Assembly: GCA_963700145.1 (NCBI GenBank) | Contig: OY969474.1 | Location: 4,480,001-4,544,000 of the forward strand | DNA from: an uncultured Acidobacteriota bacterium | GTDB taxonomy: Bacteria > Acidobacteriota > Thermoanaerobaculia > Multivoradales > UBA5704 | Length of the DNA stretch: 64,000 bases | Direction: 5' to 3' | Shown here: positions 12,072-56,193 of the stretch, piece after piece | Layout of the letters: each line of letters begins with the position of its first letter | Position numbering within the stretch: position 1 is the stretch's first letter | Notes under the pieces: generated by a model | What the model saw: the letters and a program-made list of their open reading frames with translations, nothing else | Databases searched by the model: none | What the model was told of the DNA's origin: nothing | Program-made: the position numbers and the translations under genes

Positions 12072-12075
12072 CGCT

Positions 12076-12579
12076 TTACACTCTCCGGTAGTACGTCGCG
12101 CCGGCACCGAGCCCGCTGGCATCCACGGTGGTCCCGATGCTCTGCCGGACGAAGCCAGCCGTTGACCGGTAGGTCGTGCTTGACCAGCCGGAGACGTTAG
12201 GGCGCCCCGCCTTGGTGTGCACCACCACGCGATAGTCGCAAGTCGATGGCCACAAGCCCTGCTTCTGGATCGCATATCGAATCTGGTCGGTGTCGATCCA
12301 GAAGGCACCGGAACCGTCGGTCCATCCGTAGGCGATCGAGAAATCCCACCGTCCGACAAGCGCATCGGTCCGCGGGTTGAATACTTCGAGCGTGACAGTT
12401 TCGAGATCACGCGTCGTGATCCAGGTCGAGAGCCCTCGCTCGAGGTTCGTCCAGTCGTCCGCGATCTTGCTCGGATCCAGGCCGCTCTTCTTGATGATCT
12501 CTTGGAGGCAGTACAGCAGGTTGTTCGTCACGTAGGTGACGGAATGGGTGTACGTGTTGACGGCGACGAAGGTGCTCAT
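12076..12579 (-). CDS. cap7: Bacterial HORMA protein (Cap7/HORMA2)
   Basis: TYTHSVTYVTNNLL...SGLDPSK...LERGLSTW...GRPNVSGWS; position within type III CBASS. Confidence 0.85.
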   Translation of the reverse strand: MSTFVAVNTYTHSVTYVTNNLLYCLQEIIKKSGLDPSKIADDWTNLERGLSTWITTRDLETVTLEVFNPRTDALVGRWDFSIAYGWTDGSGAFWIDTDQIRYAIQKQGLWPSTCDYRVVVHTKAGRPNVSGWSSTTYRSTAGFVRQSIGTTVDASGLGAGATYYRRV

Positions 12580-15047: not shown

Positions 15048-15093
15048 GCGTCAAGGCCGAGCCCTCCGGGTGGCCTGCGGCCAGCCTTGACGC
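15048..15093 (-). promoter_or_regulatory. Branched hairpin element upstream of ardC (candidate ssDNA promoter / ssi)
   Basis: GCGTCAAGG...CCTTGACGC stem enclosing two small hairpins; 38-nt core repeated with one mismatch at 46436-46473. Confidence 0.55.
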
Positions 15094-35234: not shown

Positions 35235-37719
35235 CACGATCCGTCGGCCGGTCTCGCTGCTCGATGAGCTCCAGGCGGGTGCTGGGTTCGAGGCCGGACT
35301 GCTCACCAGCTTCAATTCTTATCTCCCATTCGTCGAGGAGGTTGTCTTCCCGCGCCTGCGGGCGACGGGTTGCCACTACCTCGTCGCGATGAGCGATCGG
35401 GCGCAGTTGGCAAGCGAGCTCGCGGAGAAAACGCGTCGGCCTCAGACGGCGGGGCGACGGTATGCGTTGCTGCCGATCGGATGCGGCGGCGCTTTCCACC
35501 CCAAGATCCTCCTCCTGGTGGGGCCGAAGCGAGCGCGGTTATTCATCGGCAGCCACAACCTCACCATGTCCGGCTTCATTCAGAACCGCGAGCTCACGAA
35601 CATCATTGAAATCACGGGGCCCAAGGACCGGGAAGGGGCCGCAGCGCTCATCGAGGCCATCGAGTTCTGCAAAGCATGGGCGGTCGATCTTCCGCTTGCT
35701 CTGCGGACCGTCATCGAGGACTTTGGGAAGCTCTGCGCGGCGTACGCAGGGCCGGTGCCGGAACGGATCTCGACTACGGTGGTTGGAGCGCGCCCGACAG
35801 GCCCCTCCCTTTGGCAGCGAGTAAGAAGCCTCCTGCCTGAATCGGCAAAGAGAATCGTCGTACTGGGTCCCTACTTTGACCAGGGCCTTTCGTTCCTGAA
35901 GCGTCTCCAAGACGATCTCGGCCCCCGGAGCTTGGTCGTGGGCCTGGACCCAAAGTCCGCCCACTTTCCGGGCGACATGAAGGCGCTACCAAGCGGCCTT
36001 CGAGTCGTCGACGCCCACGACCTGAGCCCAGGCCACAAGGGACGAGGATTCCTTCACGGAAAGGCGATCCTGATCGAGGGCAAGTCAGAGCGAATTCTGA
36101 TTACGGGAAGTGCCAACCCGACCGCTCGCGCCTGGCTGGCTCCCGCGGGCTCGCGAAATGCCGAGATCGTGGTCGTGCGGAGGCTCCCGGCGAGCCATCC
36201 GGACGACTTGGGCTTGGTCCAACTTTGCGACCAGGATCCGCTCGAGGAACGCGTACTCTCGAAGCTACGTGCTCGTCCAGAACCAAAGGGTGAGCCCGCG
36301 GACTCTAGCGGGCTCCTCGTGGGGGTCTGTCAGGAATCGACGATTCACATCGAAGGCACCTTCCGCGCGAGCAGCGCCGTGGTGGTTCGCGACTCCCGCG
36401 GGGCTGAGCTCAAGTCGCGCACGAGAAAGACGCCTGGAGGCATGGTCGTCGACGTTGAGGAGCGTGCCCACGATGCAAGCTCCCTCGAAGCAACCGTCGA
36501 CGGCCAGATTCGCTACGGGTTCGTCCATCATCCGGAACTCCTGCGGGAGGCGGCCTTGTCGTCCTCGCAAAGACGAGTCCGTGAGGCGCTGAGCGGCCTC
36601 AGCGGTGATGCCTCCCAGTTGGAGGGCCTGCTGCGTCTGGTGGAGAAGGTAATCTTCGAAGCCCCTGCCGTACGAGTCGTCGCCGGCCGTTCCAAGGAGG
36701 AGTCCAAGGAGCCCAAAGGAGGTCGGAAGGAGGGTCCGACCGTCGTCCTCGTCGAAACACTGAAGGCGGGGCAGATCCACGACCGTCGGCACCTAGCCGA
36801 GGGCGATCTGGGCCTACTTCTCGACTTCCTCTTGCGGAAGCTCTGGCAGAACCTCGCCCATGAGCCATCTGCCGGCGGGCGTTCGGAAGTCGAGCTGGTC
36901 GACAGTGAGAACGAGGACTTCGCGGAGCAGCTGCCCTCTGACCGGACCATTGCAGAGGCGTGGCATCGGAAGAGCCGGACACTTCTCAAGCGTCTCCGGC
37001 GAAGGATCGAAGAAGGAAGCGAAGCCTTGCCGGTCGTGATCGAGGCTGCCGCAGTATTGGGTGTGCTCGAGGCTGTCCGGAGAGTCGAAGATCAGGACCG
37101 CTGGCGCTCGGTGCGAGCCGAGTTCGTCGATCGCGAGGCGGCGGAAGAGTTCGTCCTGGCTGCGACGCCGCGACTGCTCACCGCCGCAACCGGCCTCGTC
37201 GACCGATCGACGGTCGAGGCAGGAGCACCCTTCGCAGAGCAGCAGGGCCTGATCGAGTGGATGACTTGGCTTGCGTGGCTGACAGGTTTCGGTCCGACGG
37301 ACCTTACGCTCGAGGAGGACCCCGAGGAGCCTGAGTCGGCAAGCGTGGAGGCTGATCGCCTCGCGTGCGCCTGCATCATCGGAGCGCATGCTTCTCGATG
37401 CAATCAGGCTCGACTGCTCGAGTTCTTGGAGGCAGCTCCATTCCCGGGGACCGACGCTCGCGGCTGGCTTGATGCGCTCTTGCAGCTGGGCGCAACGTTC
37501 GCCAACCCGCTGGCTGCACGGAAGCTCGATCGGCCACCACGACTGGGCGACCTTGTCTTGACCCTCGCTGGCGCCGGTCCGTTCGTCGTGCGGAGCGTTC
37601 GCGCTGGAAAGGTCGACCTCATCGACTTCGGGCGCGAGAACGGCGTGGCGACGTTCCTCTCGAGCTCAGTTCGCGTTCTCGACGCAGAAGTCAGCCGCCA
37701 GCGGCACGCTGCGGGCTGA
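35227..37719 (+). CDS. Phospholipase D-like (nuclease) domain protein with long unknown C-terminus
   Basis: Two HxK...GSxN motifs: FHPKILLL...GSHNLT and LHGKAILI...GSANPT. Confidence 0.8.
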   Translation: MADTIRRPVSLLDELQAGAGFEAGLLTSFNSYLPFVEEVVFPRLRATGCHYLVAMSDRAQLASELAEKTRRPQTAGRRYALLPIGCGGAFHPKILLLVGPKRARLFIGSHNLTMSGFIQNRELTNIIEITGPKDREGAAALIEAIEFCKAWAVDLPLALRTVIEDFGKLCAAYAGPVPERISTTVVGARPTGPSLWQRVRSLLPESAKRIVVLGPYFDQGLSFLKRLQDDLGPRSLVVGLDPKSAHFPGDMKALPSGLRVVDAHDLSPGHKGRGFLHGKAILIEGKSERILITGSANPTARAWLAPAGSRNAEIVVVRRLPASHPDDLGLVQLCDQDPLEERVLSKLRARPEPKGEPADSSGLLVGVCQESTIHIEGTFRASSAVVVRDSRGAELKSRTRKTPGGMVVDVEERAHDASSLEATVDGQIRYGFVHHPELLREAALSSSQRRVREALSGLSGDASQLEGLLRLVEKVIFEAPAVRVVAGRSKEESKEPKGGRKEGPTVVLVETLKAGQIHDRRHLAEGDLGLLLDFLLRKLWQNLAHEPSAGGRSEVELVDSENEDFAEQLPSDRTIAEAWHRKSRTLLKRLRRRIEEGSEALPVVIEAAAVLGVLEAVRRVEDQDRWRSVRAEFVDREAAEEFVLAATPRLLTAATGLVDRSTVEAGAPFAEQQGLIEWMTWLAWLTGFGPTDLTLEEDPEEPESASVEADRLACACIIGAHASRCNQARLLEFLEAAPFPGTDARGWLDALLQLGATFANPLAARKLDRPPRLGDLVLTLAGAGPFVVRSVRAGKVDLIDFGRENGVATFLSSSVRVLDAEVSRQRHAAG

Positions 37720-37758: not shown

Positions 37759-38385
37759 TTATCGGACAGGAAGAACCAAGCACGACTCCGATAGCAGGGA
37801 CACGGGAACGGACCAGCCGGTCCGGAGCAGTGCGGCACCGATTAGGGAGTAGACGGATGGTTCCGCGATGATGTTCGCGCCTGCCGGGTTGGGCAATGAC
37901 TTGACGAAGGCGTTGACAGCGAGGCCTGCGTCGCCACGGTGCGTGTCGGACTTCGCAGCCCCGGAGACGAAAGCCTCCCAGAGAAACAGGCCTCCTTTGT
38001 GCTTCTCGAAGTCGGGCCAGTTGAAGTAGACGCTAGGCTCGCGCGGAAGCGCCCTCCGAATGTGATCCAAGACCCAAGCGGCTTGTACGAGCCCGGTCGC
38101 GAGTGAGCCGCACCCTGCCCCAGCCGACCATGGGCGGTCCTTCTCTCCAGCCCGTGCGCGCATCAGCTCCGATGGCTCGGCGCGGAGCGGGACAAAGAGC
38201 GGGCACTCGAACCCGAGGGCCACAGATCGTCCCGATCGAAGCCTCGCCAGGACCGCGTCAGTGAACGCCCGGATCGAGCCGCTGTCTGGTACCTCCTCAG
38301 CGGCACCGGGCAAGTCACAGATCGCCCAGCCGAAGTTTCCCTTCACTTCTGACCCGACATCCGCGCACGCGACTGAGAGATTCAT
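37759..38385 (-). CDS. Hypothetical protein, possible RNase H-fold (DUF429-like) nuclease
   Basis: VACADVGS...FGWA, ALGFECPLFVP, LWEAFVSG, H..DA acidic motif pattern. Confidence 0.55.
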   Translation of the reverse strand: MNLSVACADVGSEVKGNFGWAICDLPGAAEEVPDSGSIRAFTDAVLARLRSGRSVALGFECPLFVPLRAEPSELMRARAGEKDRPWSAGAGCGSLATGLVQAAWVLDHIRRALPREPSVYFNWPDFEKHKGGLFLWEAFVSGAAKSDTHRGDAGLAVNAFVKSLPNPAGANIIAEPSVYSLIGAALLRTGWSVPVSLLSESCLVLPVR

Positions 38386-38442
38386 GCGCCCAGGCTCCTC
38401 ACAGGGGGCGTAGCTCCCGGCCACTGAGCGGCGACCACTCGT

Positions 38443-39339
38443 CTAGTCCAGACCACATGCCCTTCGATGCCATCTTCGATCAAGATCACGATCCACGACG
38501 ATTTCTTGAGGGTGCCGCAGCGGAAAGCCAAGTCGAGAGCTCGGGACCCCAGCGTTCGGATCATCGGCAGCCCTGTGATGCGTAGCGTCCAGTCCAAATC
38601 CACGATTCTCAATCAGGTTCACCGACGGAACAGCGCAGCATCCACTCCGACGAAGGCACGCGAGGTTCCATGGCACAGCCCAAGAATCCAATTGGGACGC
38701 CGCAACGAGGTCGAAAAGGCGGGCTCGTTCGGCGAAGATCTCCTCATCTCCCAACAGCTTCCCTAGCTGCTCAAGGGTCCTTTGGTCAGTCCTCCAGGAT
38801 GCCAGGCTCGCATCGAAGTACCTCCATGCTCGACGCCAAGTAGCCCAACCCCAGGAACTGCCCAAATGAGAGAAGGAATAGCTGGCCTCGGCAGGCCGCC
38901 AGCTTCCGAGCAGGTTGAAGCCAGTGATCATCATTACCCGCTCTTGGTCTTCGAAGCGGGCCAGGAGTTCCTCGCAATAGGGGAAGAACGAAGCATCGGC
39001 AACGCAGTCCTCCTCCAGAAAGATCGCGCTTTGCTCGTGCTCTAGCACCCAAGACACGCCGCTTGCGATCCGGCGAGCGCAGCCCAGATGCGCTTGCGCG
39101 AAATTGCTGCGGACCCGGCAGGGCCAGTCCACCTCCTCAACGAGGCGTTGACTCTGGAGGCAGGCTGCGGCCTCGGAAGGCTCCCGTTCGCCGTCGGCGA
39201 TAAAGTACAGGCGAGACGGCTGGTGGCGTCGAATAGCCGCCAGAGCTTGGCGCGCAAGCTCCGGGCGGCGATAGACGAATAGCGCCACAGCCGACCCATC
39301 GGGGATTGAGACACCGCCATGCGGAGCTGAGTGCGTCAC
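38443..39339 (-). CDS. GT-A glycosyltransferase (HlpA-like / GT2-related)
   Basis: LFVYRRP, LYFIADG, IFLEEDC, SWGWATWRRAW, NLIENRGFG..ATH. Confidence 0.85.
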   Translation of the reverse strand: MTHSAPHGGVSIPDGSAVALFVYRRPELARQALAAIRRHQPSRLYFIADGEREPSEAAACLQSQRLVEEVDWPCRVRSNFAQAHLGCARRIASGVSWVLEHEQSAIFLEEDCVADASFFPYCEELLARFEDQERVMMITGFNLLGSWRPAEASYSFSHLGSSWGWATWRRAWRYFDASLASWRTDQRTLEQLGKLLGDEEIFAERARLFDLVAASQLDSWAVPWNLACLRRSGCCAVPSVNLIENRGFGLDATHHRAADDPNAGVPSSRLGFPLRHPQEIVVDRDLDRRWHRRACGLD

Positions 39340-39368
39340 AAGGTTGAGGTCCGACTAGAGTCTAACCA

Positions 39369-40199
39369 ATGCTCGAGATTCTGTACGCTCCGGCTGTCGA
39401 CACACTGGTTCCGTGGAGCGACTGCAACTCGATCGAGCGCTGGCATTACGATCGAGTGTTCGCTGAGCTTGTCCGCTCCAGGCCGAGTCTCGACTGGCAG
39501 TTCATCGTGACTGAGCTCGTCGAGGATTTGCCAAAGGTGGGCGCTCGCGTGGTAGTCATCCTCAAGAGCGATGAGCGTTCGCGGCCTCCCGCGTACACGG
39601 GCGCGGTTCGAGCGCTCTTTCGCAACTACCACAGCCCCGATTCGTCCTCGGAAAGCCGGAACGTCTTTCCGCTGCCACTTCCCAGTCTGATTTCCGCTCC
39701 GCCAGTTCTTCGGCCCACGCCGAGCAGACGACTGGACGTCGCCTTCATGGGGAATGTACGTGACCGCCGCTGGGACTTTGTGGCGAACTTCGCTGAGCTG
39801 CAGGCTAGTCGGCGCGACCTGCGTATTGCGTTCACGCCCACGGAGCGCTTTCGTGGTGGCCTCAGCGCCGTTGAGTACTCCCAGACCCTTGCGGATTCCA
39901 AGATAGCCCTGTGTCCAGCTGGCGGGGCCGTAGAGACCTTCCGATTCACCGAGGCCCTCCAGCATGGCTGCGTCGTGATTGCCGAAAGGCAGCCTCGCCA
40001 ACCCTTCTACCTCGCGGCTGAATACCACCCCGTCACGGACTGGCGGATGCTTGGGCCGTTGGTCGGGCACCTGTTGCCCTTGGAGAAGGAGTCGCGTATT
40101 CCCCCGGACGCGGCGAATCGAGCCATCTCCCACTGGGAGCGAGCGTTCAGCCCAGAAGCGGTTGCGCACTATGTTCTGGACACCCTGGAAGGCCTCTGA
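39369..40199 (+). CDS. GT-B glycosyltransferase (exostosin/GT47-like C-terminus)
   Basis: DVAFMG, EYSQTLADSKIALCPAG..VETFRFTEALQHGCVVI. Confidence 0.75.
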   Translation: MLEILYAPAVDTLVPWSDCNSIERWHYDRVFAELVRSRPSLDWQFIVTELVEDLPKVGARVVVILKSDERSRPPAYTGAVRALFRNYHSPDSSSESRNVFPLPLPSLISAPPVLRPTPSRRLDVAFMGNVRDRRWDFVANFAELQASRRDLRIAFTPTERFRGGLSAVEYSQTLADSKIALCPAGGAVETFRFTEALQHGCVVIAERQPRQPFYLAAEYHPVTDWRMLGPLVGHLLPLEKESRIPPDAANRAISHWERAFSPEAVAHYVLDTLEGL

Positions 40200-40230
40200 T
40201 TGTCGGCTTAGCAGATGACTAAAGCACGCG

Positions 40231-41031
40231 TCAGACGGCCCCTCGCTCGCCGAGAGCGAGAGCGCGGCGCGCAACAAGTACTGAGTCCCGCACCATTTCT
40301 ACGGTGAGCGACTCAAGGCATAGCGGCGTGTTGCACTCGATGTCCGTGTGTCGAGCGAAGTGCTTGCAGCCATTGCAGCCGACATCGGACATGATGGGGA
40401 TTGCGCATGGATCAAGCAGAACGAGCGAGGGGTGGGTAGCACCGAAGATAACGAAAGTCTCGCGGCCGAAGCATTGACTGAGAATCGCGGGCCCGGAGTC
40501 GTTGCCGACGAAGCATGAGGAGTGTTCGCAAAGACCTACCATCTCGGAGAAGGTATGGTGGGGCTCAAGTAAGACAAAGGGCATGTCCAGGGCGTCTTCG
40601 AGCTGGTCCCGTAGGTCTAGAAATCGTTCGCGCGGCCACTGCCTCATCAGTCGGACGAAGCTGCTTGTGTCAGGCGCGATAAGGCCATATGGGCCGGAGC
40701 GCATGCGTTGGGAACCCCGGCGAACCCGGGGGGTCCGGTAACGAGGCTCTACGCCGGCGAAGCGCGCGTATCCGTCCAAGTGATTGCAGCCGGGAAAGGT
40801 CTCGTAAACAAGCACTAGTGTCTCGTCGAACTCCCCCAGGTCGTTGGCCACGTACCGAGAGTACGGCAGGACTTCATCGTAGACATCCAACAGCCGGCCA
40901 GCTTGAACGTATTCAGAGCACAATGAAATGCTCGCGTAGCGCGGCCGGAGAGCACTGGCAATAGGCTCTGTTAGGAGCACGTCGCCCATGTGGCCGCGGC
41001 GCACAATGCAGAGTCGCGGGGTGTCCTTCAC
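40231..41031 (-). CDS. GT9 (heptosyltransferase-like) glycosyltransferase
   Basis: GHMGDVLLTEP, RQWP, FVGNDSGP, VIFGAT, C..C...C..CL tail. Confidence 0.82.
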   Translation of the reverse strand: MKDTPRLCIVRRGHMGDVLLTEPIASALRPRYASISLCSEYVQAGRLLDVYDEVLPYSRYVANDLGEFDETLVLVYETFPGCNHLDGYARFAGVEPRYRTPRVRRGSQRMRSGPYGLIAPDTSSFVRLMRQWPRERFLDLRDQLEDALDMPFVLLEPHHTFSEMVGLCEHSSCFVGNDSGPAILSQCFGRETFVIFGATHPSLVLLDPCAIPIMSDVGCNGCKHFARHTDIECNTPLCLESLTVEMVRDSVLVARRALALGERGAV

Positions 41032-41711
41032 CGCGCTGGCGCACCAATAACGTCAGCGACAACGACGGGCGCGATGCGTTGGCAGAACAGCCACTCATCC
41101 TCGGTATCAATATCGAGAGCCTCCGGATAGGAAAGCTCAAGGAAGCTCACGGGCTTGAAGGCGAGAGAGCCGTGGCGTGTGAAGTTGAGGCCAGTGGCAA
41201 CGTGAACTCCACCGGTGACGCGCCACTGCGGCGGAAGATCCTGACTGCGAGGCTGCCGACTCGGATTGTAGTTCGGTGCATCTGGCGCCGACCACGTGAA
41301 ATCCTGGCACCGCTGAACGCCGAGAACGCAGACGTCGCTATCTTGCAGAACCTGTCCGATGGCGCGGTCGATTGTGCCTGGAAGAACGAAGGGAGAGGTT
41401 GGATGTGCCCAATAGACCGCGACGTGCTGAAAGTCGGCCAGTACGGCCTCGAAGAGCTCTCTGATCTCGACGTGCTCACCGCAGAGGCGCGGGTGACGGG
41501 GTCGCGGCTCCGCACCAAGCGACGCTGCTTGCTCCAGCGCAACGTCATCATCTGAGGAAACGACGATCCGTGTGACCAACGAACAACGCTGGAGTGCCAG
41601 GATCTTCAGCTGAAGGAGAGAGAGCTCCTCAAAAAATGGGCGGGTGTTCTTGGCTGGCACTCGGACGCTACCGCGCCGTGCTGGGACCAGCGCGATGGCT
41701 GCCCTGTTCAC
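41028..41711 (-). CDS. Acylneuraminate-type cytidylyltransferase (NeuA/CMAS family)
   Basis: LVPARRGSVRVPAKN, VVSSDD, PTSPF, RSQDLP, LDIDTEDEW. Confidence 0.88.
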   Translation of the reverse strand: MNRAAIALVPARRGSVRVPAKNTRPFFEELSLLQLKILALQRCSLVTRIVVSSDDDVALEQAASLGAEPRPRHPRLCGEHVEIRELFEAVLADFQHVAVYWAHPTSPFVLPGTIDRAIGQVLQDSDVCVLGVQRCQDFTWSAPDAPNYNPSRQPRSQDLPPQWRVTGGVHVATGLNFTRHGSLAFKPVSFLELSYPEALDIDTEDEWLFCQRIAPVVVADVIGAPAR

Positions 41712-42877
41712 AATACTGCCTCGGGAACGAGGTGCGAGAGCGGGACGCGGGGAAACACCTCGAGCTCGCCGCCAACAGTGGCGTTCCAGACGCCACCGCC
41801 GGCCGCCTCAAAAGCGCCTCTGGCGCATTCGTACGCAGCCTCGACTCGAGCGCGCTGCGGTTGATGGTAGCGCCTCCCTTTGCCGAAGTACTCCGGGTCG
41901 AAGTGATTCGTGTCAGGCCCTTCAGCTACCACCACTGATTCGAGTGTCGCTCCGTGGTGAGCCGGATAGGTGCCGTCGACGCCAACCAGATAGACAGCTC
42001 TCGCGCCAGCGAAGTACGCGAGCTGGAGCAAGAGGTATGTTACGGACCAGCCTGTGAAGACTTCACTGGCGATGTCCACGGAGAACTGCGGATAGGGCGC
42101 GTAGGAGCGGATGACAGGAAGGTATGCGTCGCCAAGAAGGCGATCGCGTTGATCCCACGGGAAGAATTTAATCGCGCCTTCATAGGCCTGAATCTCCCGC
42201 TGCCTGTCCTCGGCGACGAGCCTGTCTTCGACGACATAAAAAGTCGGCCTGAAGAAGTAGCTGCGGTCAAGGAGAAATAGACCATTGCTTCCAAGCGTGA
42301 ACTCGCCAGCGAGAGCGCGGAGATTGGTACCCCGGAGACTAGGGCCGTTCCCGATGACGAAAGCCCGCCGACCCTGGAAGCGATTACGCCAGCATTGGAG
42401 TCGGCCTCTATTGGAGAGCAAGCTGGCGACCTCCGGGTCGGTGCGGACGTCCCCCAAATCAAGAGAGATCAGCAGTTCTTCCGGACCCCCGATAGCCAAC
42501 AAGGGCTCGGGCGGGTTTTCAGAGAGCAGCTTCGGGGTTCGTCGAACTGCAAAAGGCGTCGAGTAGGTTAGCGGCACGCACGAACTCTCGGTGTCGAGTG
42601 ATTCGAGGAACTCCGTCGCCCCTCCCACCTGGCTTTCGCGAAAGGCCTCATAGAGGCTCTCCTCCAAGCGAACGCGCCAGCCTTGCGGGAGGAAGAAGCG
42701 AAGATTGGCGCCGCGATGAGTGCGTCGCCGAAGGGATCTGATAGCGAGAACGGCGCTGCAGAGGTCTTCCCATGGGCAGGTTGGTGAGACGAAGACATCA
42801 GACGGGAGGGCTGGTGAGCTGGCGGCGCGCGATGGGGAGGCGCCGGCAGGTGTCGAACTAGTGGGCGGAGCGCTCAT
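41708..42877 (-). CDS. DUF115/MptE-like (Maf / sialyltransferase-fold) protein
   Basis: RAFVIGNGPSL, TLGSN, SVTYLLLQLAYFAG...YLVGVD, NHFDPEYFG. Confidence 0.78.
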   Translation of the reverse strand: MSAPPTSSTPAGASPSRAASSPALPSDVFVSPTCPWEDLCSAVLAIRSLRRRTHRGANLRFFLPQGWRVRLEESLYEAFRESQVGGATEFLESLDTESSCVPLTYSTPFAVRRTPKLLSENPPEPLLAIGGPEELLISLDLGDVRTDPEVASLLSNRGRLQCWRNRFQGRRAFVIGNGPSLRGTNLRALAGEFTLGSNGLFLLDRSYFFRPTFYVVEDRLVAEDRQREIQAYEGAIKFFPWDQRDRLLGDAYLPVIRSYAPYPQFSVDIASEVFTGWSVTYLLLQLAYFAGARAVYLVGVDGTYPAHHGATLESVVVAEGPDTNHFDPEYFGKGRRYHQPQRARVEAAYECARGAFEAAGGGVWNATVGGELEVFPRVPLSHLVPEAVL

Positions 42878-43739
42878 GCCAGTCCCTTAGTGTTGTGCAA
42901 ACCTGAATTCGCTCGGGTGGAACAACTGTTCCCCAGAACGTTCTGTCGCCCTCGAACCAATCCGCTTCGAGGCCAGCGATGTCGCCGGCGTAACGAGCCG
43001 ACAGCTCGCGCAAGCGCTGAAGCTTCTCTGTCCACGGCGCATTGGCGGGATAGCCTGGTTCGACGAGGTGATCGGCCTGGTTTCGCCATTTTGTGAGGAG
43101 TGAGAGTGGCGTGTCGCGCCTCTCGAAGTGAAGCAGGCACGCCAGTGTTGCGGGCAGAGGTACGGGGGACTGAGCCGAACCAGCGAAGAATGCTGGACTA
43201 TTCTCCCTGCGAAAGTAGTGGCCACCAACTACGACTGCGATTCCATCGTGAGTTCGGCAGAAGCTCTTGCGGAAGTGGCCTTCCTGTTCCCAGGAGCGCT
43301 CCGGCCATGGCTCGAAGAAGCGTACAGTCTCAAAGACGGACTGCCCGCTCGACCTCAGAGACGGTAGGGCGTTCAGCCACCCAATGGAGGCATAGGAGAT
43401 GCCGCCGCGCTCGAGGGCGTCTAGGAAATCAGGGAGCGGTCTGGAGAGACGGAGAAACTCGTCTGCATCCAGCGGGAAGAGCCACTCTGGGTTCCAGATG
43501 TCAACCGCGAGGTTGAGTGCGCGATTGGCATACTCCTCGTGGTCGAAGGCCAGGGCAGGTTCATAGAGCACCTTAACCCGCGCGTCCTGAGCGATGTCCG
43601 CCAGGATCGCCGAGGTCCCGTCAGTGGAGGCGTGGTCGACTATTACCAAGCCCTCGATCCCCAACTCGAGGTGCCACCTAACGTTCGCCTCGATAAGGGG
43701 GAGTTCGTCACGCACGACCATGAAAGCACAGGATCTCAT
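42858..43739 (-). CDS. GT2-family glycosyltransferase
   Basis: MVVRDE..I...V.WH, IVDHASTDGT, WLFPLDADEF. Confidence 0.85.
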   Translation of the reverse strand: MRSCAFMVVRDELPLIEANVRWHLELGIEGLVIVDHASTDGTSAILADIAQDARVKVLYEPALAFDHEEYANRALNLAVDIWNPEWLFPLDADEFLRLSRPLPDFLDALERGGISYASIGWLNALPSLRSSGQSVFETVRFFEPWPERSWEQEGHFRKSFCRTHDGIAVVVGGHYFRRENSPAFFAGSAQSPVPLPATLACLLHFERRDTPLSLLTKWRNQADHLVEPGYPANAPWTEKLQRLRELSARYAGDIAGLEADWFEGDRTFWGTVVPPERIQVCTTLRDWHERSAH

Positions 43740-43743
43740 CTAC

Positions 43744-44556
43744 TCACCGCCCGTCGGCGCGCCAAGGTGGGGGCTCTGCGTTCAAGCCGCTCACTGCTGC
43801 GATCTCTGGAAGAAAGCGCCAGAAGGCTGGGTGTTGGGGGTACGTGGCGTGTAGGGCCTTGATGCCGGCCAGCGTCTCGACCGGGGTTGAGTTGAGAGGA
43901 CAAACAACTCTGTAGTGTGCGGGATCGAGGAGCATTACCTCGGAACGGCGACAGTATGCCTGAAGGAGAAGTGCCACTGCCCCTTGTTCGTCGTGGTAGA
44001 GATACCCCTCACTTTCTGCCCGTGAAATCCAGGCGTTGTAGAGGGCCCACAGATCTATCGAGATGTCTACGCCAGCCCTTTGGCCGACAATGCCGGCGTT
44101 TATCGGGACGAAGGGAGTAGGAAGCTGAGGGCCAAACGTCCCATAGGGCCAGAGTGCGACGAACTCCTCCTGCGCGGCGAGAAGAAGGTGGGGAGACGAT
44201 GTGCGGAGAAAAGAGCGCAGCTCGTGTGGCTCGCTAACAAGAAATACATCCGCATCCAGATGCACTTCCGCCAGGCTCGCGTCCAGACGCCCGCACGGCG
44301 CCCACTTCATCCACGTGCTGCGCGAATCGCAAAACTGTCGTTGAGAATGACTGGAGTAGTCGCGCACAAGAGCGGGAGCGAGGAGATTGGCTTCGACGGC
44401 AGCGGCGTTGTCCGTATGGACAACGCAAGTCGCCTTGTCCTTGAAGAAGGCCCTAACTGTGCCGATACTGTGGGAGAGCATGAAGACGGATTCGGGCGTC
44501 GGGTTCCACAACGACCACCGGAAGAGCACCGAAGGTGTCGCCACTGTGTCGCTCAA
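43744..44556 (-). CDS. Putative GT-A fold transferase (GT8-like)
   Basis: HLDADVFL (DxD), INAGIVG, DEQG motifs. Confidence 0.6.
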   Translation of the reverse strand: MSDTVATPSVLFRWSLWNPTPESVFMLSHSIGTVRAFFKDKATCVVHTDNAAAVEANLLAPALVRDYSSHSQRQFCDSRSTWMKWAPCGRLDASLAEVHLDADVFLVSEPHELRSFLRTSSPHLLLAAQEEFVALWPYGTFGPQLPTPFVPINAGIVGQRAGVDISIDLWALYNAWISRAESEGYLYHDEQGAVALLLQAYCRRSEVMLLDPAHYRVVCPLNSTPVETLAGIKALHATYPQHPAFWRFLPEIAAVSGLNAEPPPWRADGR

Positions 44557-45998
44557 GCGGGCGGCTCCTCATTCGCGGGTGTCCTGAGAAGATGGCCATC
44601 GCGCACCCAGCGGCCGAGCTGCTCGTCGTCTATTCCCGCGGCCAGTAGTTCTGCGACACAAACGGGTGTGGAATGCCGAGACAGGACATCGAGCAATCGG
44701 GAATCCCTGCAGTACCCGTACTCGTAGTCGTTGTAGTAGCCGGCCTGAGAGTACTCGCACCACGGTGGCGTGAGGAGCAGGTCACTTGATGAGTTGGCGC
44801 GGACGGGTAGTTCGAGAGCCGCGGGTGTTCGCGTGGCCGTGGTGATGGTATTGGCGTACCCCTCGACCATCTGACGCAGAGAATAGTGCCGTGAAACATA
44901 GTCACGAACATCGGCTCGCTGTTGCCTAGGTGAAAGCAAATGCCCAGCCAGCACTTCGGCAGTTTGGTCTAGGCGACCGTAAGGAATCTTGGAGACCAGC
45001 TCGTCGGGGAGAATGTCGCGCTGAGCGCCCACGCGCGACACAATTGCTGGCGTCCCGCAGAGCTCCGACTCGACCGCGACGTTTCCGAAGGATTCAATGA
45101 AGTTGCCAATGGAAAGAGTGGCCCGGCCCAGCGAGTAGTAGGCAGGCATCAAATCGGGCGCCAGCCAAGGATGCAAAACAAGAAGGTCTGGCATCCCGAG
45201 CGCGGCGGCCTGCTCCTCTGCGTCCTTGTAGAGCCCCTGATAGACATGGCTGCTGCCAGGAGCAATGGCAGAGTCCATCCAGATCGGGACTGCCAGTCGC
45301 ACTCGCCGCATCGCACTCTCGGGCAGGTAGCTCTTGCAGAGGGAGAGTGTGGCAATGGCTTCGGTGAGGCCCTTGCGCGGGTCGGGGCGGTGGGGATGAA
45401 GGACCAGCAACTCGTCCCCACGAAGTCGCAGCGCGCGCCGAACGGGTTCAGGCTCGGTAGGTCGAAGGTCGTCGAGGTCAAAGCCGTTCGGGACGACAGA
45501 TACGTTCGATGGCGCTAGTTTCCGGAAGTCGGCGAAGATCGCTGTCACACATGCCCGGAGATAGGTGGAGGGCAGAACTAGATGGTCACGGCGGAAACCG
45601 AAGGCGCCCCCAAGCGTGTCTGGATAAACAAAGTCTTGAAGTGCGATGACGGCGGGGATGTCTTCATAGAGGAAATGAAACAGCAGCTCTCCGTCGTGAA
45701 CATAGAGAACGTCAGCGCGATCCAGAGCGCGCCTGAGTGTTGTGATGACATCGCGAAGTCGGTAGACCGCAGTGTAGTAGGGCTCCGGGTATGTCTGCTT
45801 GAAGCCGAGGACTGGGTGAACTTCGACCAGCGGATGGAGCTTGAAAGGGGCGCTGTTGTCGGTACGCCGTGTGCAGAAGACGGTGCACTCATGCCCACCG
45901 TCGCCTAGATGGCGCAAGACGGCTCCAAGTGTCTTCTGGGAACCACCGTGAACGAGAGCAGGGAAGATTGGGCCCAAGGAGAAGACGACTATGCGCAT
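44553..45998 (-). CDS. GT4 (GT-B) glycosyltransferase
   Basis: HGGSQK, VVPNGFD, HRPDPRKG, ESFGNVAVESELCGTP. Confidence 0.85.
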   Translation of the reverse strand: MRIVVFSLGPIFPALVHGGSQKTLGAVLRHLGDGGHECTVFCTRRTDNSAPFKLHPLVEVHPVLGFKQTYPEPYYTAVYRLRDVITTLRRALDRADVLYVHDGELLFHFLYEDIPAVIALQDFVYPDTLGGAFGFRRDHLVLPSTYLRACVTAIFADFRKLAPSNVSVVPNGFDLDDLRPTEPEPVRRALRLRGDELLVLHPHRPDPRKGLTEAIATLSLCKSYLPESAMRRVRLAVPIWMDSAIAPGSSHVYQGLYKDAEEQAAALGMPDLLVLHPWLAPDLMPAYYSLGRATLSIGNFIESFGNVAVESELCGTPAIVSRVGAQRDILPDELVSKIPYGRLDQTAEVLAGHLLSPRQQRADVRDYVSRHYSLRQMVEGYANTITTATRTPAALELPVRANSSSDLLLTPPWCEYSQAGYYNDYEYGYCRDSRLLDVLSRHSTPVCVAELLAAGIDDEQLGRWVRDGHLLRTPANEEPPA

Positions 45999-46435
45999 TG
46001 ATGAGAACTCAGGCTGGGCTCTGCATTTCTAGCCGGTGGGACAACCGGGGGGCCATGGGGTGCGAGGCAAAGATGCGCCCCTGGCTGTGTGTCGAGCGGA
46101 AGCTGCCCGAGTCGGCAGCGCAATAGGACGGCGATCTGGTTAGGGTTTGCACCATTTCGCGTGACCGGTAGTGGCGAGTGGAGCTGATCAGGGCGCGGGC
46201 TGCCGAGTCTCAACCGGTCCCTACACTTCTCGCGAGCCAGGGACCCCAAGGGTACCGACGCGCCGAAATGTGCCCGTTTCAGCTTTCATTGATTATAGAA
46301 GAAGGTCTGCGCGTCGGAATCACGCCACTGATGAACGCCACGGGACCAAGTCGAGAGGATGTCTGCTAGTTCGCCCTCTCCCGGCCCGGTGTCGTCCATC
46401 GGCGCCCCACATTCGATTCCGCTGCTCGCGGCCCG

Positions 46436-46473
46436 CAAGGCCGAGCCCTTCGGGTGGCCTGCGGCCAGCCTTG
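46436..46473 (-). promoter_or_regulatory. Branched hairpin element upstream of radC
   Basis: 37/38 identical to 15052-15089. Confidence 0.55.
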
Positions 46474-46506
46474 TCGCGCCGCTGCGCGGCTACATCTCGG
46501 GTGGGC

Positions 46507-47040
46507 ATGCGCCGAACGACACCCAACCGCGAGAGCCGAGACCCCCAGCCCCAGAACCGCCTCAACTTCGTCGAGCCCGGTGAGCCGGGCTTCGAGCCGG
46601 AGACCATCGCCCGCTACCGCGTAGCCCTGGTCCGAGAAGAGGCCACCCCGTACGAGTCGCCCGAGCACTGCGGCGACCCCGCAGCAGCCGCCAGATTCCT
46701 CCACACCATCCTGTCGTCCTGGGACCGCGAGGTCATGGGCGCGCTGTTCCTCGACACGCGCAACCGCGCGATCGGCCATCAGCTCGCCTACATCGGGACG
46801 CTGACCCGCGCCGCCGTCGAGCCTCGCGGCATCCTGACCGCCGCGCTGCTCTCGAACGCCGCCGGCATACTTCTATTCCACAACCACCCAAGTGGGGACC
46901 CCTCGCCCAGTGCCGAGGATCTCGCCTTCACCCGCCGGATGGCGGAGGCGGGGGAGGTCGTTGGGGTCCGGGTCCTCGACCACATCATCATCGGAGAAGC
47001 CCCAGCCTTCGTCTCGCTCCGTCAGCGCGGAGCCTTCTGA
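46507..47040 (+). CDS. radC: RadC-like JAB domain protein
   Basis: DREV..ALFLDTRN, HNHPSGDPSPSAED, VLDHIIIG. Confidence 0.9.
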   Translation: MRRTTPNRESRDPQPQNRLNFVEPGEPGFEPETIARYRVALVREEATPYESPEHCGDPAAAARFLHTILSSWDREVMGALFLDTRNRAIGHQLAYIGTLTRAAVEPRGILTAALLSNAAGILLFHNHPSGDPSPSAEDLAFTRRMAEAGEVVGVRVLDHIIIGEAPAFVSLRQRGAF

Positions 47041-56187: not shown

Positions 56188-56193
56188 CGACGT

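What the first reader, a model, noticed from the sequence alone, without database searches (positions are those of the whole stretch)
37759..45998. Export-less eight-gene glycosylation cluster followed by a predicted nuclease, among defence systems
Seen: GT4, GT8-like, GT2, DUF115/Maf-like, cytidylyltransferase and GT9 are tightly coupled on the minus strand, then an inverted GT, an HlpA-like GT and a DUF429-like ORF. The block is visibly more AT-rich than the backbone and has no wzx/wzy/ABC exporter, no priming transferase, no obvious membrane protein and no sugar-synthesis genes. Inference: not a normal capsule or O-antigen locus. It could mask phage receptors by decorating a host glycan, glycosylate the pilus or other proteins, or (most speculative) modify nucleic acid as self-marking paired with the adjacent nuclease or PLD genes.
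Basis: partly seen in the sequence, partly recalled or inferred. Interest (0 to 1): 0.7.

Follow-up and report, generated by a model that had tools for sequence, protein, structure and literature searches.

The report
Mobile glycosyltransferase block on a conjugative element
An 8-kb block of soluble sugar-transferring enzymes has landed in the cargo slot of a chromosomal conjugative element; it is a rare, transferable sugar-chain-building module whose target molecule is unknown, and the neighbouring predicted nuclease is not part of it.

Summary
Eight glycosylation genes and a ninth ORF lie at 37759-45998. They are lower in G+C than their surroundings. None has an exporter, priming-transferase, sugar-synthesis or membrane-protein signature.

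The window is a Trb-type integrative conjugative element (ICE). Compared with related ICEs, the glycosyltransferase (GT) genes form a discrete ~8-kb insertion/deletion unit (about 38403-46385) in a general cargo slot between ParB and RadC. The RNase H-like ORF lies outside that unit. A remnant of it sits beside RadC in a relative that has no GT genes.

A core of the block recurs in synteny in a few metagenome loci, often beside mobile-element genes, and never with the nuclease or the PLD gene. This core is a GT4 with a conserved C-terminal domain, a GT8-like protein, a GT2 and a GT9, with or without DUF115 and a cytidylyltransferase. The GT4/GT8-like pair also occurs in Actinomycetota.

Homologues of the DUF115 and HlpA-like genes lie in ordinary O-antigen or surface-glycan loci. 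The host shows no flagellin gene and no NeuB-type synthase.

Best reading: a mobile, cytoplasmic oligosaccharide-assembly module that works on a host-supplied acceptor. The acceptor is unresolved. DNA marking is unlikely.

The parts
38403..46385 (.). The ~8-kb glycosyltransferase block as a discrete insertion/deletion unit inside the ParB-RadC cargo slot of the ICE
   Evidence: blastn against the ICE of genome G032: window 38288-38402 and window 46386-47040 are 50 bp apart there and 7984 bp apart here. G+C is 0.60-0.63.
44553..45998 (-). GT4 glycosyltransferase, 481 aa, with a conserved extra C-terminal domain (PPWC..GYYNDY motif plus a winged-helix-like tail, residues ~405-481). First gene of the operon.
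   Evidence: Pfam. A discrete family of 82 relatives aligned over their full length. AbiEi_4 matches in 4 of 32 members, best E 6.6e-5. Nearest solved relatives are sucrose-phosphate synthase, MshA and BshA.
43744..44556 (-). GT8-like retaining GT-A glycosyltransferase, 270 aa, no Pfam family. Conserved partner of the GT4.
   Evidence: 56 relatives. Invariant D101-x-D103 and H236. Model pLDDT 94. Foldseek matches to XXYLT1, LgtC and glycogenin.
42858..43739 (-). GT2 glycosyltransferase (Glyco_tranf_2_4), 293 aa
   Evidence: Pfam E 2.4e-14. Syntenic in L089, L128, L090, L097 and L092.
41708..42877 (-). DUF115/MptE-like (Maf-type) transferase, 389 aa, with a ~150-aa N-terminal extension shared with only a few relatives
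   Evidence: Pfam E 2.7e-6, below the cut-off. 516 relatives carry PF01973. N-terminal extension seen in 6 relatives.
41028..41711 (-). NeuA/PseF-like cytidylyltransferase (CMP-ulosonic-acid synthetase type), 227 aa
   Evidence: CTP_transf_3 E 2.4e-9. PseF model E 2.1e-15, far below its cut-off. Best solved relatives are NeuA enzymes, E 9e-13.
40231..41031 (-). Compact GT9-family glycosyltransferase, 266 aa, with four invariant C-terminal cysteines (C219, C222, C233, C238)
   Evidence: Pfam E 1.4e-5. Alignment of 4 syntenic homologues. Weak matches to solved GT9 chains 3tov and 1psw.
39369..40199 (+). Opposite-strand GT47/exostosin-like glycosyltransferase, 276 aa. Present in this copy of the block only.
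   Evidence: Pfam Exostosin_GT47 E 1.2e-5 and RXYLT1_C E 2.1e-5, both below their cut-offs. GC3 pattern favours this strand. No plasmid homologue. Absent from all 80 metagenome loci, including the syntenic ones.
38443..39339 (-). HlpA-like nucleotide-diphospho-sugar transferase, 298 aa. Present in this copy of the block only.
   Evidence: tblastn on plasmids: 18 records, best 39% identity, annotated 'hemolytic protein HlpA-like' or 'glycosyltransferase'. Context of one homologue shown.
37759..38424 (-). RNase H-like (RuvC/YqgF-like) predicted nuclease, 221 aa. Homologues start near residue 14. A neighbour of the block, not part of it.
   Evidence: 1034 representative relatives. Model pLDDT 92. 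VIA-align Z 8.1-6.0 to RuvC-type domains. A remnant lies beside RadC in G032 without any GT genes.
45999..46385 (.). Upstream non-coding stretch of the operon. It belongs to the inserted block and presumably holds its promoter.
   Evidence: Related ICEs match only from window 46376/46386 onward. The consensus scan found no sigma-70-type site.

Best explanation
The block at about 38403-46385 is a self-contained, horizontally mobile glycan-assembly module. It sits as cargo in the variable ParB-RadC slot of a Trb-type integrative conjugative element.

It encodes only soluble enzymes:
- a GT4 with an extra C-terminal domain;
- a GT8-like retaining GT-A enzyme;
- a GT2;
- a compact GT9;
- a DUF115 (Maf-type) transferase paired with a NeuA/PseF-like cytidylyltransferase;
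- and, in this copy only, a GT47-like and an HlpA-like transferase.

Inferred mechanism: the enzymes act in sequence on the cytoplasmic side, using the host's nucleotide-sugar pools. They build a short hetero-oligosaccharide. The DUF115 enzyme caps or decorates it with a CMP-activated ulosonic acid. In this host that is probably Kdo, because no NeuB-type synthase was found.

The acceptor is supplied by the host. I think it is most likely a lipid-linked envelope precursor (lipid A-core or an undecaprenyl-PP-sugar). Housekeeping machinery would then export it, as happens for lipooligosaccharide cores. That would explain why the block needs no exporter, priming enzyme or membrane protein. The outcome would be an altered cell surface for whichever host receives the element.

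Shown: the gene content, the soluble nature of the proteins, the indel boundaries, the conserved synteny elsewhere, and the independence from the nuclease.
Inferred: the order of action, the donors, the acceptor and the surface outcome.
For: -
- All nine proteins lack hydrophobic segments.
- Six of the genes overlap or nearly abut (coordinates).
- The block is one indel unit relative to related ICEs. It is lower in G+C than the backbone.
- GT4, GT8-like, GT2 and GT9, with or without DUF115 and the cytidylyltransferase, recur in the same order or as neighbours in L089, L128, L090, L097, L088 and L092, out of 80 metagenome loci holding the GT4 family. Those loci sit beside transposases, IS elements, Prim-Pol or a terminase fragment.
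- The GT8-like family was found in 0 of 400 other genomes sampled from the host's class. So the module is rare and acquired.
- A GT9 + GT4 + GT8 + GT2 + CMP-sugar set without exporters is the make-up of core/LOS loci (my own knowledge of waa and Campylobacter LOS loci, not a call).
- The DUF115 domain has closer relatives in glycan loci. 51 of 80 genome loci have a cytidylyltransferase within 10 kb. L004, L051 and L035 hold Wzt/ABC-2 transporters, methyltransferases and GT2s.
- An HlpA-like homologue lies in a plasmid surface-carbohydrate locus with neuB.
- Maf-type enzymes can add ulosonic acids to glycans and can use CMP-Kdo (abstracts of PMC5420450 and PMC11339370 in the listing).
Against: - No acceptor is identified, and nothing ties the block to the host's LPS genes.
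- The conserved GT4/GT8-like pair also occurs in Actinomycetota, which have no LPS. The named records are Nonomuraea phyllanthi, Kribbella speibonae and Actinoplanes sp., and 14 further longest-contig lengths are shared. So lipid A-core cannot be the general acceptor.
- The GT4's nearest solved relatives glycosylate small soluble acceptors (sucrose-phosphate synthase 5e-19, MshA 1e-12, BshA 2e-12).
- A sister clade of the GT4 family sits beside pterin-synthesis genes.
- The host shows no gmhA and no SIS_2 domain. It has only a sub-threshold rfaE-like kinase. The usual GT9 donor, ADP-heptose, may therefore be missing.
- No NeuB-type synthase was found, so the cytidylyltransferase's substrate here is a guess.
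- There are no expression data (see Tried and rejected).
Confidence: 0.4

Rival explanations
1. The module makes a soluble cytoplasmic glycoside. The GT4 glycosylates a small metabolite, as MshA, BshA, sucrose-phosphate synthase or pteridine glycosyltransferases do. The other transferases then extend the sugar chain. No export or lipid carrier is needed.
For: - The GT4 family profile is closest to SPS, MshA and BshA, and more weakly matches tetrahydrobiopterin glucosyltransferases.
- In the wider family, 23 of 74 rows lie next to GTP cyclohydrolase I, FolB, SDR or HPPK genes, in at least 5 separate places on the tree.
- Another clade lies with ATP-grasp, DegT aminotransferase and GFO/IDH/MocA oxidoreductase genes.
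- L088 has DegT, a carbamoyltransferase and GFO beside GT4 and the GT8-like gene.
- The pair occurs in Actinomycetota.
- All proteins are soluble.
Against: - The module-type GT4s form a group separate from the pterin-context clade (quick tree, support 88 and 99).
- No pterin, aminocyclitol or tailoring genes lie in or beside the block here.
- GT9, DUF115 with a CMP-sugar synthetase, and HlpA-like enzymes are typical of envelope and protein glycans.
Confidence: 0.22
2. Cytoplasmic O-glycosylation of a protein, in the manner of Maf/flagellin, TibC/autotransporter or GtfA-GtfB/serine-rich adhesin systems. The glycoprotein is then exported through its own secretion route.
For: - DUF115 is the Maf family, and a CMP-sugar synthetase accompanies it.
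- The GT9 has four invariant cysteines and a weak match to the Aah/TibC model (TIGR04414, E 3.3e-4, far below the cut-off).
- GT4 + GT8 + GT2 sets glycosylate serine-rich adhesins (recalled, not from a call).
- The C-terminal winged-helix-like tail of the GT4 could be a peptide- or protein-recognition domain. This rests on a lead only: ESM feature score 0.76 to an MftB-type cluster.
Against: - No Flagellin_N match in the one-contig genome.
- No candidate substrate gene is conserved next to the module in any of the 6 syntenic loci.
- The TibC match is very weak.
Confidence: 0.13
3. One reading: the block glycosylates DNA or RNA as a self-mark that works with the adjacent RNase H-like nuclease or the PLD gene.
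For: - The block lies beside an RNase H-like nuclease and a ZacB-like PLD, in an element rich in defence and anti-restriction genes.
- The GT4 carries a winged-helix-like tail.
- GT4 domains have been proposed as effectors in conflict systems (PMC8195603, passages read).
Against: - The nuclease, PLD, unk555 and RadC are absent from all 80 loci with the GT4 family, including the 6 syntenic ones.
- A nuclease remnant abuts RadC in G032 without GT genes.
- The nearest plasmid homologue of the nuclease is a lone gene.
- There are no PADLOC matches and only three weak PHROG rows, E 0.00021 to 0.0069.
- No family members were found in viral contigs.
- No phage DNA glucosyltransferase appears among the 56 solved chains matched by the GT4 profile.
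- No enzyme for a modified base precursor is present.
- Seven or eight different transferases are far more than DNA marking needs.
Confidence: 0.03
4. Passenger DNA that is largely inert in this host. The block arrived with the ICE from a lower-G+C donor, and this host lacks its usual donors or acceptor.
For: - No NeuB, no gmhA or SIS_2, and no flagellin were found in the host.
- G+C is 8-10 points below the host's.
- The slot carries unrelated cargo in relatives.
Against: All eight reading frames are intact and tightly coupled. Kdo, UDP-sugars and universal acceptors are available in any Gram-negative host.
Confidence: 0.1

Closest known systems
Lipooligosaccharide / LPS core oligosaccharide loci (waa loci; Campylobacter LOS loci with neuA and sialyltransferase)
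   Same: Sets of soluble GT9, GT4, GT8 and GT2 enzymes plus a CMP-ulosonic-acid synthetase and its transferase. They have no dedicated exporter, polymerase or priming enzyme because they build on lipid A-Kdo at the inner leaflet (my own knowledge). The gene content here matches that recipe.
   Different: - This block is on an ICE, not in the host's LPS locus.
- It has no ligase, kinase or Kdo transferase.
- The ulosonic-acid transferase is DUF115 rather than GT42, GT52 or GT80.
- The GT4/GT8-like core also occurs in Actinomycetota.
- The GT9 is a compact 266-aa form with a Cys4 motif.
Maf (motility-associated factor) flagellin glycosylation islands
   Same: A DUF115 transferase next to a PseF/NeuA-like cytidylyltransferase, acting in the cytoplasm (PMC4065374 seen in the listing only).
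   Different: - No flagellin gene in the genome.
- No nonulosonic-acid synthase.
- The DUF115 domain is closer to ~270-aa forms in O-antigen-type loci than to a ~600-aa Maf (that size is recalled).
- Five to six further transferases accompany it.
Terminal nonulosonic-acid transferases of general O-glycan or O-antigen pathways (e.g. Tannerella forsythia Pse/Leg transferases)
   Same: Maf-related enzymes add a CMP-activated ulosonic acid as the last sugar of a lipid-linked oligosaccharide (abstract of PMC5420450, listing). Short DUF115 genes lie with Wzt/ABC-2 transporters, methyltransferases and GT2s.
   Different: Those loci carry the sugar pathway and a flippase or ABC transporter. This block carries neither.
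Small-molecule GT4 enzymes: MshA, BshA, sucrose-phosphate synthase, pteridine glycosyltransferases
   Same: They are the best solved sequence relatives of the GT4. A sister clade of the family sits in pterin-gene neighbourhoods. Pteridine glycosyltransferases are known enzymes (abstracts of PMC5683033 and PMC4133829, listing).
   Different: - The family has an extra ~80-aa conserved C-terminal domain.
- The match to solved tetrahydrobiopterin glucosyltransferases is weak (4e-6 and 1e-4).
- The copy here lies with seven other glycosylation genes and no pterin genes.
GT4 effector domains of bacterial conflict systems (Pfam PF20706; Kaur, Burroughs, Iyer and Aravind 2021, PMC8195603)
   Same: A GT4 in a defence-rich mobile context. 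3 of 32 family members match PF20706.
   Different: The window's protein does not match PF20706 at E 0.05. It is not fused to STAND, GTPase or other sensor modules. It heads a multi-transferase operon instead of being a lone effector (passages read).

Membership tests
LPS core / LOS biosynthesis locus | GT9 heptosyltransferase with an ADP-heptose supply in the cell | tested here: inconclusive
   GT9 domain E 1.4e-5. gmhA TIGR00441 and SIS_2 were not found in the own genome. An rfaE_dom_I-like kinase scores 241 bits, below the 345-bit cut-off.
LPS core / LOS biosynthesis locus | Confined to organisms with lipid A-Kdo and linked to other waa genes | tested here: not met
   The block is ICE cargo. 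The GT4/GT8-like pair is named in Actinomycetota. The host's other GT9 lies about 210 kb away.
Maf flagellin glycosylation system | DUF115 (PF01973) transferase plus a CMP-nonulosonate synthetase | tested here: met
   PF01973 E 2.7e-6, below the cut-off, and carried by the relatives. PseF model E 2.1e-15. NeuA structures E 9e-13.
Maf flagellin glycosylation system | A flagellin substrate encoded in the genome | tested here: not met
   No Flagellin_N (PF00669) match in the one-contig genome, 95% complete. The control search hit 4 of 14 named control genomes.
Maf flagellin glycosylation system | A nonulosonic-acid synthase (NeuB/PseI/LegI) available | tested here: not met
   The only PF03102 hit is a DAHP synthase. 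None lies in L089 or L128 within 10 kb.
Capsule / O-antigen gene cluster (Wzx/Wzy or ABC-transporter type) | Exporter, polymerase or chain-length genes, a priming phosphoglycosyltransferase, and sugar-nucleotide synthesis genes in the cluster | tested here: not met
   No such Pfam or NCBIfam domains in the nine proteins. No hydrophobic segments.
Restriction-modification-like DNA glycosylation (phage-type DNA glycosyltransferase plus nuclease) | Conserved linkage of transferase genes with the nuclease | tested here: not met
   0 of 80 GT4-family loci, and 0 of the 6 syntenic ones, carry the nuclease or PLD. A nuclease remnant lies next to RadC without GT genes in G032.
Restriction-modification-like DNA glycosylation (phage-type DNA glycosyltransferase plus nuclease) | Similarity to known DNA glycosyltransferases or to phage proteins | tested here: inconclusive
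   None among the 56 solved chains matched by the GT4 profile. Only three weak PHROG rows, E 0.00021 to 0.0069. Viral contigs gave only generic GT4 C-domain matches. The GT-B proteins were not modelled, so no fold comparison with T4 glucosyltransferases was made.
Known anti-phage defence systems (PADLOC-DB 2.0) | A match of any cluster protein to a defence-system model | tested here: not met
   0 of 9 cluster proteins matched at E 0.01. The neighbouring PLD matched ZacB, and Gabija was recovered, which shows the search works.
Pteridine glycosyltransferase | Neighbourhood of pterin-synthesis genes and closeness to solved BGluT/PGT enzymes | tested here: not met
   No pterin genes in the window. 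The module GT4s group apart from the pterin-context clade. BGluT matches are only 4e-6 and 1e-4.
DUF429 (PF04250) predicted nuclease (the 221-aa ORF) | A match to the Pfam model | tested here: not met
   0 of 40 family members match at E 0.1. There is only an ESM feature lead: score 0.93 at rank 19, where 42% of the cluster members carry PF04250.
RNase H-like (RuvC/YqgF) nuclease fold (the 221-aa ORF) | The fold plus conserved acidic residues | tested here: met
   VIA-align Z 8.1 (Cas12i RuvC), 7.3 (YqgF), 7.2 (terminase nuclease), 7.0 (poxvirus resolvase), 6.8 (RuvX, RuvC). These Z values are middling by the tool's own note. Foldseek is weak, best E 7.7e-3. D22, E73, E150 and D165 are invariant in 40 sequences.

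The most novel reading that the evidence does not exclude
The conserved core (GT4 with its C-terminal winged-helix-like domain, the unclassified GT8-like partner, GT2 and the Cys4-GT9, with or without DUF115 and the CMP-synthetase) is a phylum-crossing mobile cassette. It glycosylates a universal cytoplasmic molecule, such as a pterin- or nucleotide-like metabolite or an invader's protein or nucleic acid, rather than an envelope glycan. On this reading, mobile elements carry it as a chemical or conflict function. That would explain three things: it needs no export genes, it works in both diderm and monoderm hosts, and it turns up beside transposases, Prim-Pol, patatin/WYL and defence genes.
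Probability: 0.12. Interest if true: 0.8.

Novelty: new variant of a known kind. Interest (0 to 1): 0.4.

Why it matters
If the module re-decorates a host envelope glycan, it shows a conjugative element carrying a portable kit for changing the cell surface. That would bear on phage adsorption, serotype and recipient recognition.

Whatever the target, the work defines two uncharacterised enzyme families:
- a ~475-aa GT4 with a conserved C-terminal domain. One of its clades looks like an unrecognised pteridine-linked transferase;
- a GT8-like family with no Pfam model.

Together these form a rare cassette that recurs across phyla. The work also removes a tempting but unsupported idea, that of bacterial self-DNA glycosylation paired with a nuclease.

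Tried and rejected
- DNA search of the block against plasmids: no match. Plasmid tblastn with the GT4 and the GT47-like protein: no match.
- Viral-contig scans with the DUF115 alignment gave 0 relatives. With the GT4 alignment, 80 loci were kept, all partial; most cover only the generic nucleotide-sugar-binding region (residues ~293-387) and the longest covers residues 105-381 at 24% identity.
- PHROGs: only three weak rows, E 0.00021 to 0.0069. PADLOC: no cluster protein matched.
- Single-sequence PDB searches with the GT9 and DUF115 proteins: nothing at E 1.
- The genome-contig scan with the DUF115 alignment returned almost only short-form DUF115 loci. It did not recover the full-length relatives P0003 and P0006.
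- Class-wide search with the GT8-like profile: only the own genome among 401.
- Flanking repeats that might mark the insertion: only short, chance-like repeats.
- Promoter and terminator scan: 0 promoter-like and 3 terminator-like sites, not above the shuffles.
- ESM Atlas on the GT4 C-terminal part: best score 0.78, a lead only.
- Foldseek of the GT8-like model against viral structures: generic GT-A transferases at the same level as the PDB hits, so not discriminating.
- Complex prediction of GT4 with the GT8-like partner: no verdict (score 0.00). Not used as evidence either way.
- The look-up of sequencing runs for RNA: no RNA holder was listed.
- Earlier findings of this scan: nothing by place or by sequence.
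- Literature searches found no description of this cassette. Terms used: 'DUF115 / glycosyltransferase / O-antigen', 'MptE-like / glycosyltransferase', and 'integrative and conjugative element / glycosyltransferases / lipopolysaccharide / phage adsorption'. That covers only these searches of the held library.
- Rejected ORF: the 313-aa minus-strand ORF at 39336-40277 (no Pfam hit, wrong GC3 pattern).
- The ARAGORN tRNA-Asn call at 23492-23588 lies inside the TrbB-like gene and was ignored.

Full report
**Context**

The window is G000:C1:4480001-4544000 of a 5.46-Mb, one-contig chromosome. Most of it is a Trb-type integrative conjugative element (ICE). In order, Pfam finds:
- RepA; AbiEi/AbiEii; a CBASS pair (SMODS and SAVED); a LexA-like repressor; ArdC; NikA;
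- the coupling protein TraG; TrbB, TrbE, TrbL, TrbG and TrbI homologues; ParA and ParB.

After the region of interest come RadC, a 1225-aa DUF6094 methyltransferase-helicase, SSB and a Gabija pair. A tyrosine recombinase gene lies 17 kb beyond the right end of the window.

ParB homologues of 75-81% identity occur in 9 of 21 sampled genomes of another family of the same order. They occur in 0 of 21 other genomes of the host's own family. The DUF115 gene was found in none of 4 same-genus and 20 same-family genomes. The element is therefore foreign to this lineage.

**The observation**

- Pfam supports GT4, GT2 (Glyco_tranf_2_4), CTP_transf_3 and GT9 above their cut-offs. It supports MptE-like/DUF115 and Exostosin_GT47 below theirs.
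- The cytidylyltransferase resembles PseF (NCBIfam E 2.1e-15, far below the equivalog cut-off). Among solved structures it resembles NeuA CMP-sialic-acid synthetases (E 9e-13).
- The 270-aa ORF has no Pfam match. It belongs to a family of 56 relatives with an invariant DxD motif. Its model (pLDDT 94) matches GT8 and GT6 retaining GT-A enzymes such as XXYLT1, LARGE1, LgtC and glycogenin.
- The 298-aa ORF has plasmid homologues (up to 39% identity) annotated 'hemolytic protein HlpA-like' or 'glycosyltransferase'.
- On the plus strand at 39369-40199 the GC3 pattern and two weak Pfam hits favour a GT47-like gene over the 313-aa minus-strand ORF.
- None of the nine proteins has a hydrophobic stretch typical of a membrane helix.
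- G+C is 0.595-0.627 across the block, against 0.665-0.72 in the flanking ICE genes.

**The nuclease**

The 221-aa ORF belongs to a large family: 1034 representatives at E 0.001, mostly ~210-aa stand-alone proteins.
- None of 40 members matches Pfam DUF429.
- The profile finds nothing meaningful among solved sequences; its single row is alpha-crystallin at E 0.88.
- The model (pLDDT 92.3) gives only weak Foldseek hits, best YqgF at E 7.7e-3.
- VIA-align places RuvC-type RNase H-like nuclease domains in nearly all the top 20 rows: Cas12i RuvC Z 8.1, YqgF 7.3, terminase nuclease 7.2, poxvirus resolvase 7.0, RuvX and RuvC 6.8. By the tool's own note these Z values are middling.
- Four acidic residues are invariant.

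'Predicted RNase H-like nuclease' is reasonable. 'DUF429' is not shown.

**The block is an indel unit, and the nuclease is outside it**

I fetched the DNA downstream of ParB from four related ICEs and compared it with the window.
- In G455, ParB and RadC are 1.7 kb apart. In the window they are 12.7 kb apart.
- In G032, 115 bp that are 80% identical to window 38288-38402 (the 5' end of the nuclease gene) lie 50 bp from the RadC sequence that matches window 46386-47040 at 93%. In the window these two points are 7984 bp apart. Exactly the eight glycosylation genes and their ~390-bp upstream region lie between them.
- The same slot in G032 holds a CzcA/CusA-type metal efflux pump (E 3e-198 to ZneA), flanked by a partial second RadC copy.

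Three things follow. The slot takes cargo of any kind. The GT block behaves as one unit. The nuclease gene belongs to the neighbouring DNA. The first 76 codons of the 289-aa 'RadC' ORF have no counterpart in the relatives, so they are probably not coding.

**The module elsewhere**

The GT4 protein belongs to a discrete family of 82 relatives of ~475 aa. They align over the whole length, including an extra C-terminal domain with invariant W413, C414 and D424 and a winged-helix-like tail. AbiEi_4 matches 4 of 32 members, best E 6.6e-5, and PF20706 'GT4-conflict' matches 3 of 32.

A metagenome scan with this family returned 80 loci. I ran tblastn with all window proteins against them:
- the GT8-like gene was found in 5 loci, GT2 in 5, GT9 in 3, and DUF115 and the cytidylyltransferase in 2 each;
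- they are always adjacent to the GT4 and in the window's order or close to it (L089, L128, L090, L097, L088, L092);
- the nuclease, the HlpA-like and GT47-like genes, unk555, PLD and RadC were found in 0 of 80.

Many of the loci are short contigs, so absence there is weak evidence. The six syntenic loci are the informative ones. Their surroundings are:
- L089: an HATPase_c_3 protein and Prim-Pol;
- L128: patatin, WYL, histidine phosphatases, another GT4 and an epimerase;
- L090: a DDE transposase, a pyruvyl transferase, DUF4254, a sigma-70 region 2 protein and a terminase fragment;
- L088: IS elements, DegT, a carbamoyltransferase and a GFO/IDH/MocA oxidoreductase.

The GT8-like family lists Nonomuraea phyllanthi, Kribbella speibonae and Actinoplanes sp. 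These are the same organisms as in the GT4 list. Fourteen further 'longest contig' lengths coincide between the two lists. That is a proxy for co-location, not proof. The GT8-like profile found only the own genome among 401 genomes of the host's class. The core is thus a rare cassette that crosses phyla and tends to lie in mobile DNA.

**Relatives of the single genes**

- The catalytic part of the DUF115 protein (residues ~155-385) has hundreds of ~270-aa relatives. Of 80 genome loci holding such genes, 51 have a cytidylyltransferase within the 10-kb flanks and none has any other gene of the block.
- I annotated three of these loci. They are ABC-transporter O-antigen-type loci with Wzt or ABC-2 permease genes, methyltransferases, GT2s and sugar-modifying enzymes. 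None has NeuB.
- One HlpA-like homologue lies on an Azospirillum plasmid among neuB, hisH/hisF-like genes, an amidotransferase and several transferases.
- The nearest plasmid homologue of the nuclease (46%, Vibrio) is a lone hypothetical gene.

**What the wider GT4 family suggests**

The family profile is closest to sucrose-phosphate synthase (5e-19), MshA (1e-12) and BshA (2e-12). All of these glycosylate small soluble acceptors. It matches tetrahydrobiopterin glucosyltransferases more weakly (4e-6, 1e-4).

In the metagenome loci, 23 family members lie next to GTP cyclohydrolase I, dihydroneopterin aldolase, SDR or HPPK genes, in several different arrangements. Others lie with ATP-grasp, DegT and GFO/IDH/MocA genes.

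A quick maximum-likelihood tree (74 rows; the careful search did not finish) shows:
- all pterin-context rows fall in one clade of 51 rows (support 99);
- the six module-type GT4s fall, with four others, in a separate group (support 88).

The pterin link is therefore a lead about the family, not evidence about this copy.

**What the host can supply**

- The one-contig genome (95% complete by marker genes) has no Flagellin_N match.
- It has no NeuB-type synthase. The single PF03102 hit is a DAHP synthase.
- It has no second DUF115.
- It has one other strong CTP_transf_3 gene and one other GT9.
- It has no gmhA or SIS_2 match, and only an rfaE-like kinase below the family cut-off.

Flagellin glycosylation is thus excluded here. 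The ulosonic acid activated by the cytidylyltransferase can hardly be a canonical nonulosonic acid made by the host. Kdo is the obvious candidate, and a Maf enzyme has been reported to accept it (abstract of PMC11339370 in the listing).

**Verdict on mechanism**

Shown:
- eight intact, tightly packed genes for soluble transferases and one CMP-sugar synthetase;
- one mobile unit;
- a conserved core elsewhere;
- independence from the nuclease and the PLD gene.

Inferred: sequential cytoplasmic assembly of a short hetero-oligosaccharide, capped by a CMP-activated ulosonic acid, on a host-supplied acceptor.

My estimates for the acceptor or outcome:

| Reading | Confidence |
|---|---|
| Lipid-linked envelope precursor exported by housekeeping systems (the LOS-core logic) | 0.40 |
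| Soluble small-molecule glycoside | 0.22 |
| Cytoplasmic protein glycosylation | 0.13 |
| Inert passenger DNA | 0.10 |
| Nucleic-acid marking | 0.03 |

The strongest argument against the leading reading is that the GT4/GT8-like pair occurs in Actinomycetota and the GT4 resembles small-molecule transferases. The strongest argument for it is the combined make-up (GT9, GT4, GT8-like, GT2, DUF115 with a NeuA-like enzyme, HlpA-like) and the glycan-locus homes of the DUF115 and HlpA-like relatives.

**Novelty**

A glycan-assembly gene set is a known kind of thing. What is new:
- the cassette itself;
- its mobility across phyla;
- its GT4 with a conserved C-terminal domain;
- its GT8-like partner without a Pfam family.

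My literature searches found no description of it. PMC8195603 (passages read) proposes GT4 domains as effectors in conflict systems. Those, however, are single domains fused to sensor modules, unlike this operon.

I rate it a new variant of a known kind, of moderate interest. Its value lies mainly in two uncharacterised enzyme families and a testable portable surface- or metabolite-glycosylation cassette.

Noticed in passing
window 33567-37719 (+): A 555-aa ORF with no family match overlaps the start of an 848-aa PLD-domain protein. The PLD protein matches the PADLOC model ZacB (E 4.5e-18) and, more weakly, DrmC. This is a possible two-gene defence candidate in the same cargo slot, convergent with the RNase H-like ORF.
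   Followed up: partly
window 15052-15089 and 46436-46473: A 38-nt G+C-rich palindromic sequence, 97% identical in the two copies, lies upstream of ArdC and at the 5' edge of the conserved RadC region. The same stretch matches the related ICEs. It may be a regulatory or single-strand-promoter-like element of leading-region genes, or a recombination site at the edge of the cargo slot.
   Followed up: partly
window 46171-46400: The first ~76 codons of the 289-aa RadC ORF have no counterpart in RadC of three related ICEs, where the ORFs are 189-224 aa. The real RadC start is probably near 46.4 kb.
   Followed up: partly
L263 (G032:C1:2060000-2079999) 2371-12367: In a related ICE the ParB-RadC slot holds a CzcA/CusA-like RND metal efflux pump. 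It is flanked on the left by an internally deleted RadC copy and on the right by a 115-bp remnant of the RNase H-like gene plus an intact RadC. This hints that cargo is exchanged by recombination at RadC-associated sequence.
   Followed up: partly
L127, L136, L137, L140, L145, L148, L152-L155, L158, L160, L161, L163, L166, L167 and others: A clade of the ~475-aa GT4 family, with the same C-terminal domain, sits between GTP cyclohydrolase I / dihydroneopterin aldolase and two SDR genes plus an HPPK fusion. This occurs in about 20 metagenome loci and in several variant arrangements. These are candidate pteridine glycosyltransferases of a type not among the solved ones.
   Followed up: partly
L093, L094, L149, L150, L162: Another recurrent small module: ATP-grasp (RimK-like), an unknown protein, a GFO/IDH/MocA oxidoreductase, a DegT aminotransferase and the GT4. 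In L149 it is flanked by a ResIII helicase, a PLD protein and an SMC-like ATPase. In L093 it is flanked by AbiEii. It looks like synthesis of an amino-sugar or aminocyclitol glycoside in defence-like neighbourhoods.
   Followed up: no
L004 15257-17539 and L051 8209-10620: In ABC-transporter O-antigen-type loci, the short DUF115 gene travels with a conserved trio of 'putative cyclase', CTP_transf_3 and a D-2-hydroxyacid dehydrogenase. There is no NeuB. This suggests an undescribed CMP-activated acid as a chain cap.
   Followed up: no
window 48214-51891 (+): A 1225-aa protein with an N-terminal DUF6094 methyltransferase region and a C-terminal helicase-like region (weak DpdE and ZorD matches). 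Relative to the ICE of G455, it and the 276-aa ORF before it are inserted between RadC and a 219-aa conserved ORF.
   Followed up: no
window 9709-12410 (-), 8126-9654 (+), 54139-58215 (-): A CBASS-like pair (SMODS and SAVED), AbiEi/AbiEii, and a Gabija pair (GajA E 8e-192, GajB E 3e-172) are further cargo of the same element. Each is lower in G+C than the backbone.
   Followed up: no
window 7-3067 (+): At the left edge, outside the ICE and at 72-77% G+C, lie a MatE-family gene fragment and a 732-aa GT4 protein. They are probably part of a host polysaccharide locus. This is the only exporter-type gene in the window, 35 kb from the block.
   Followed up: no
window 23492-23588 (-): ARAGORN calls a 97-nt tRNA-Asn inside the TrbB-like ATPase gene. 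It is probably a false positive.
   Followed up: no
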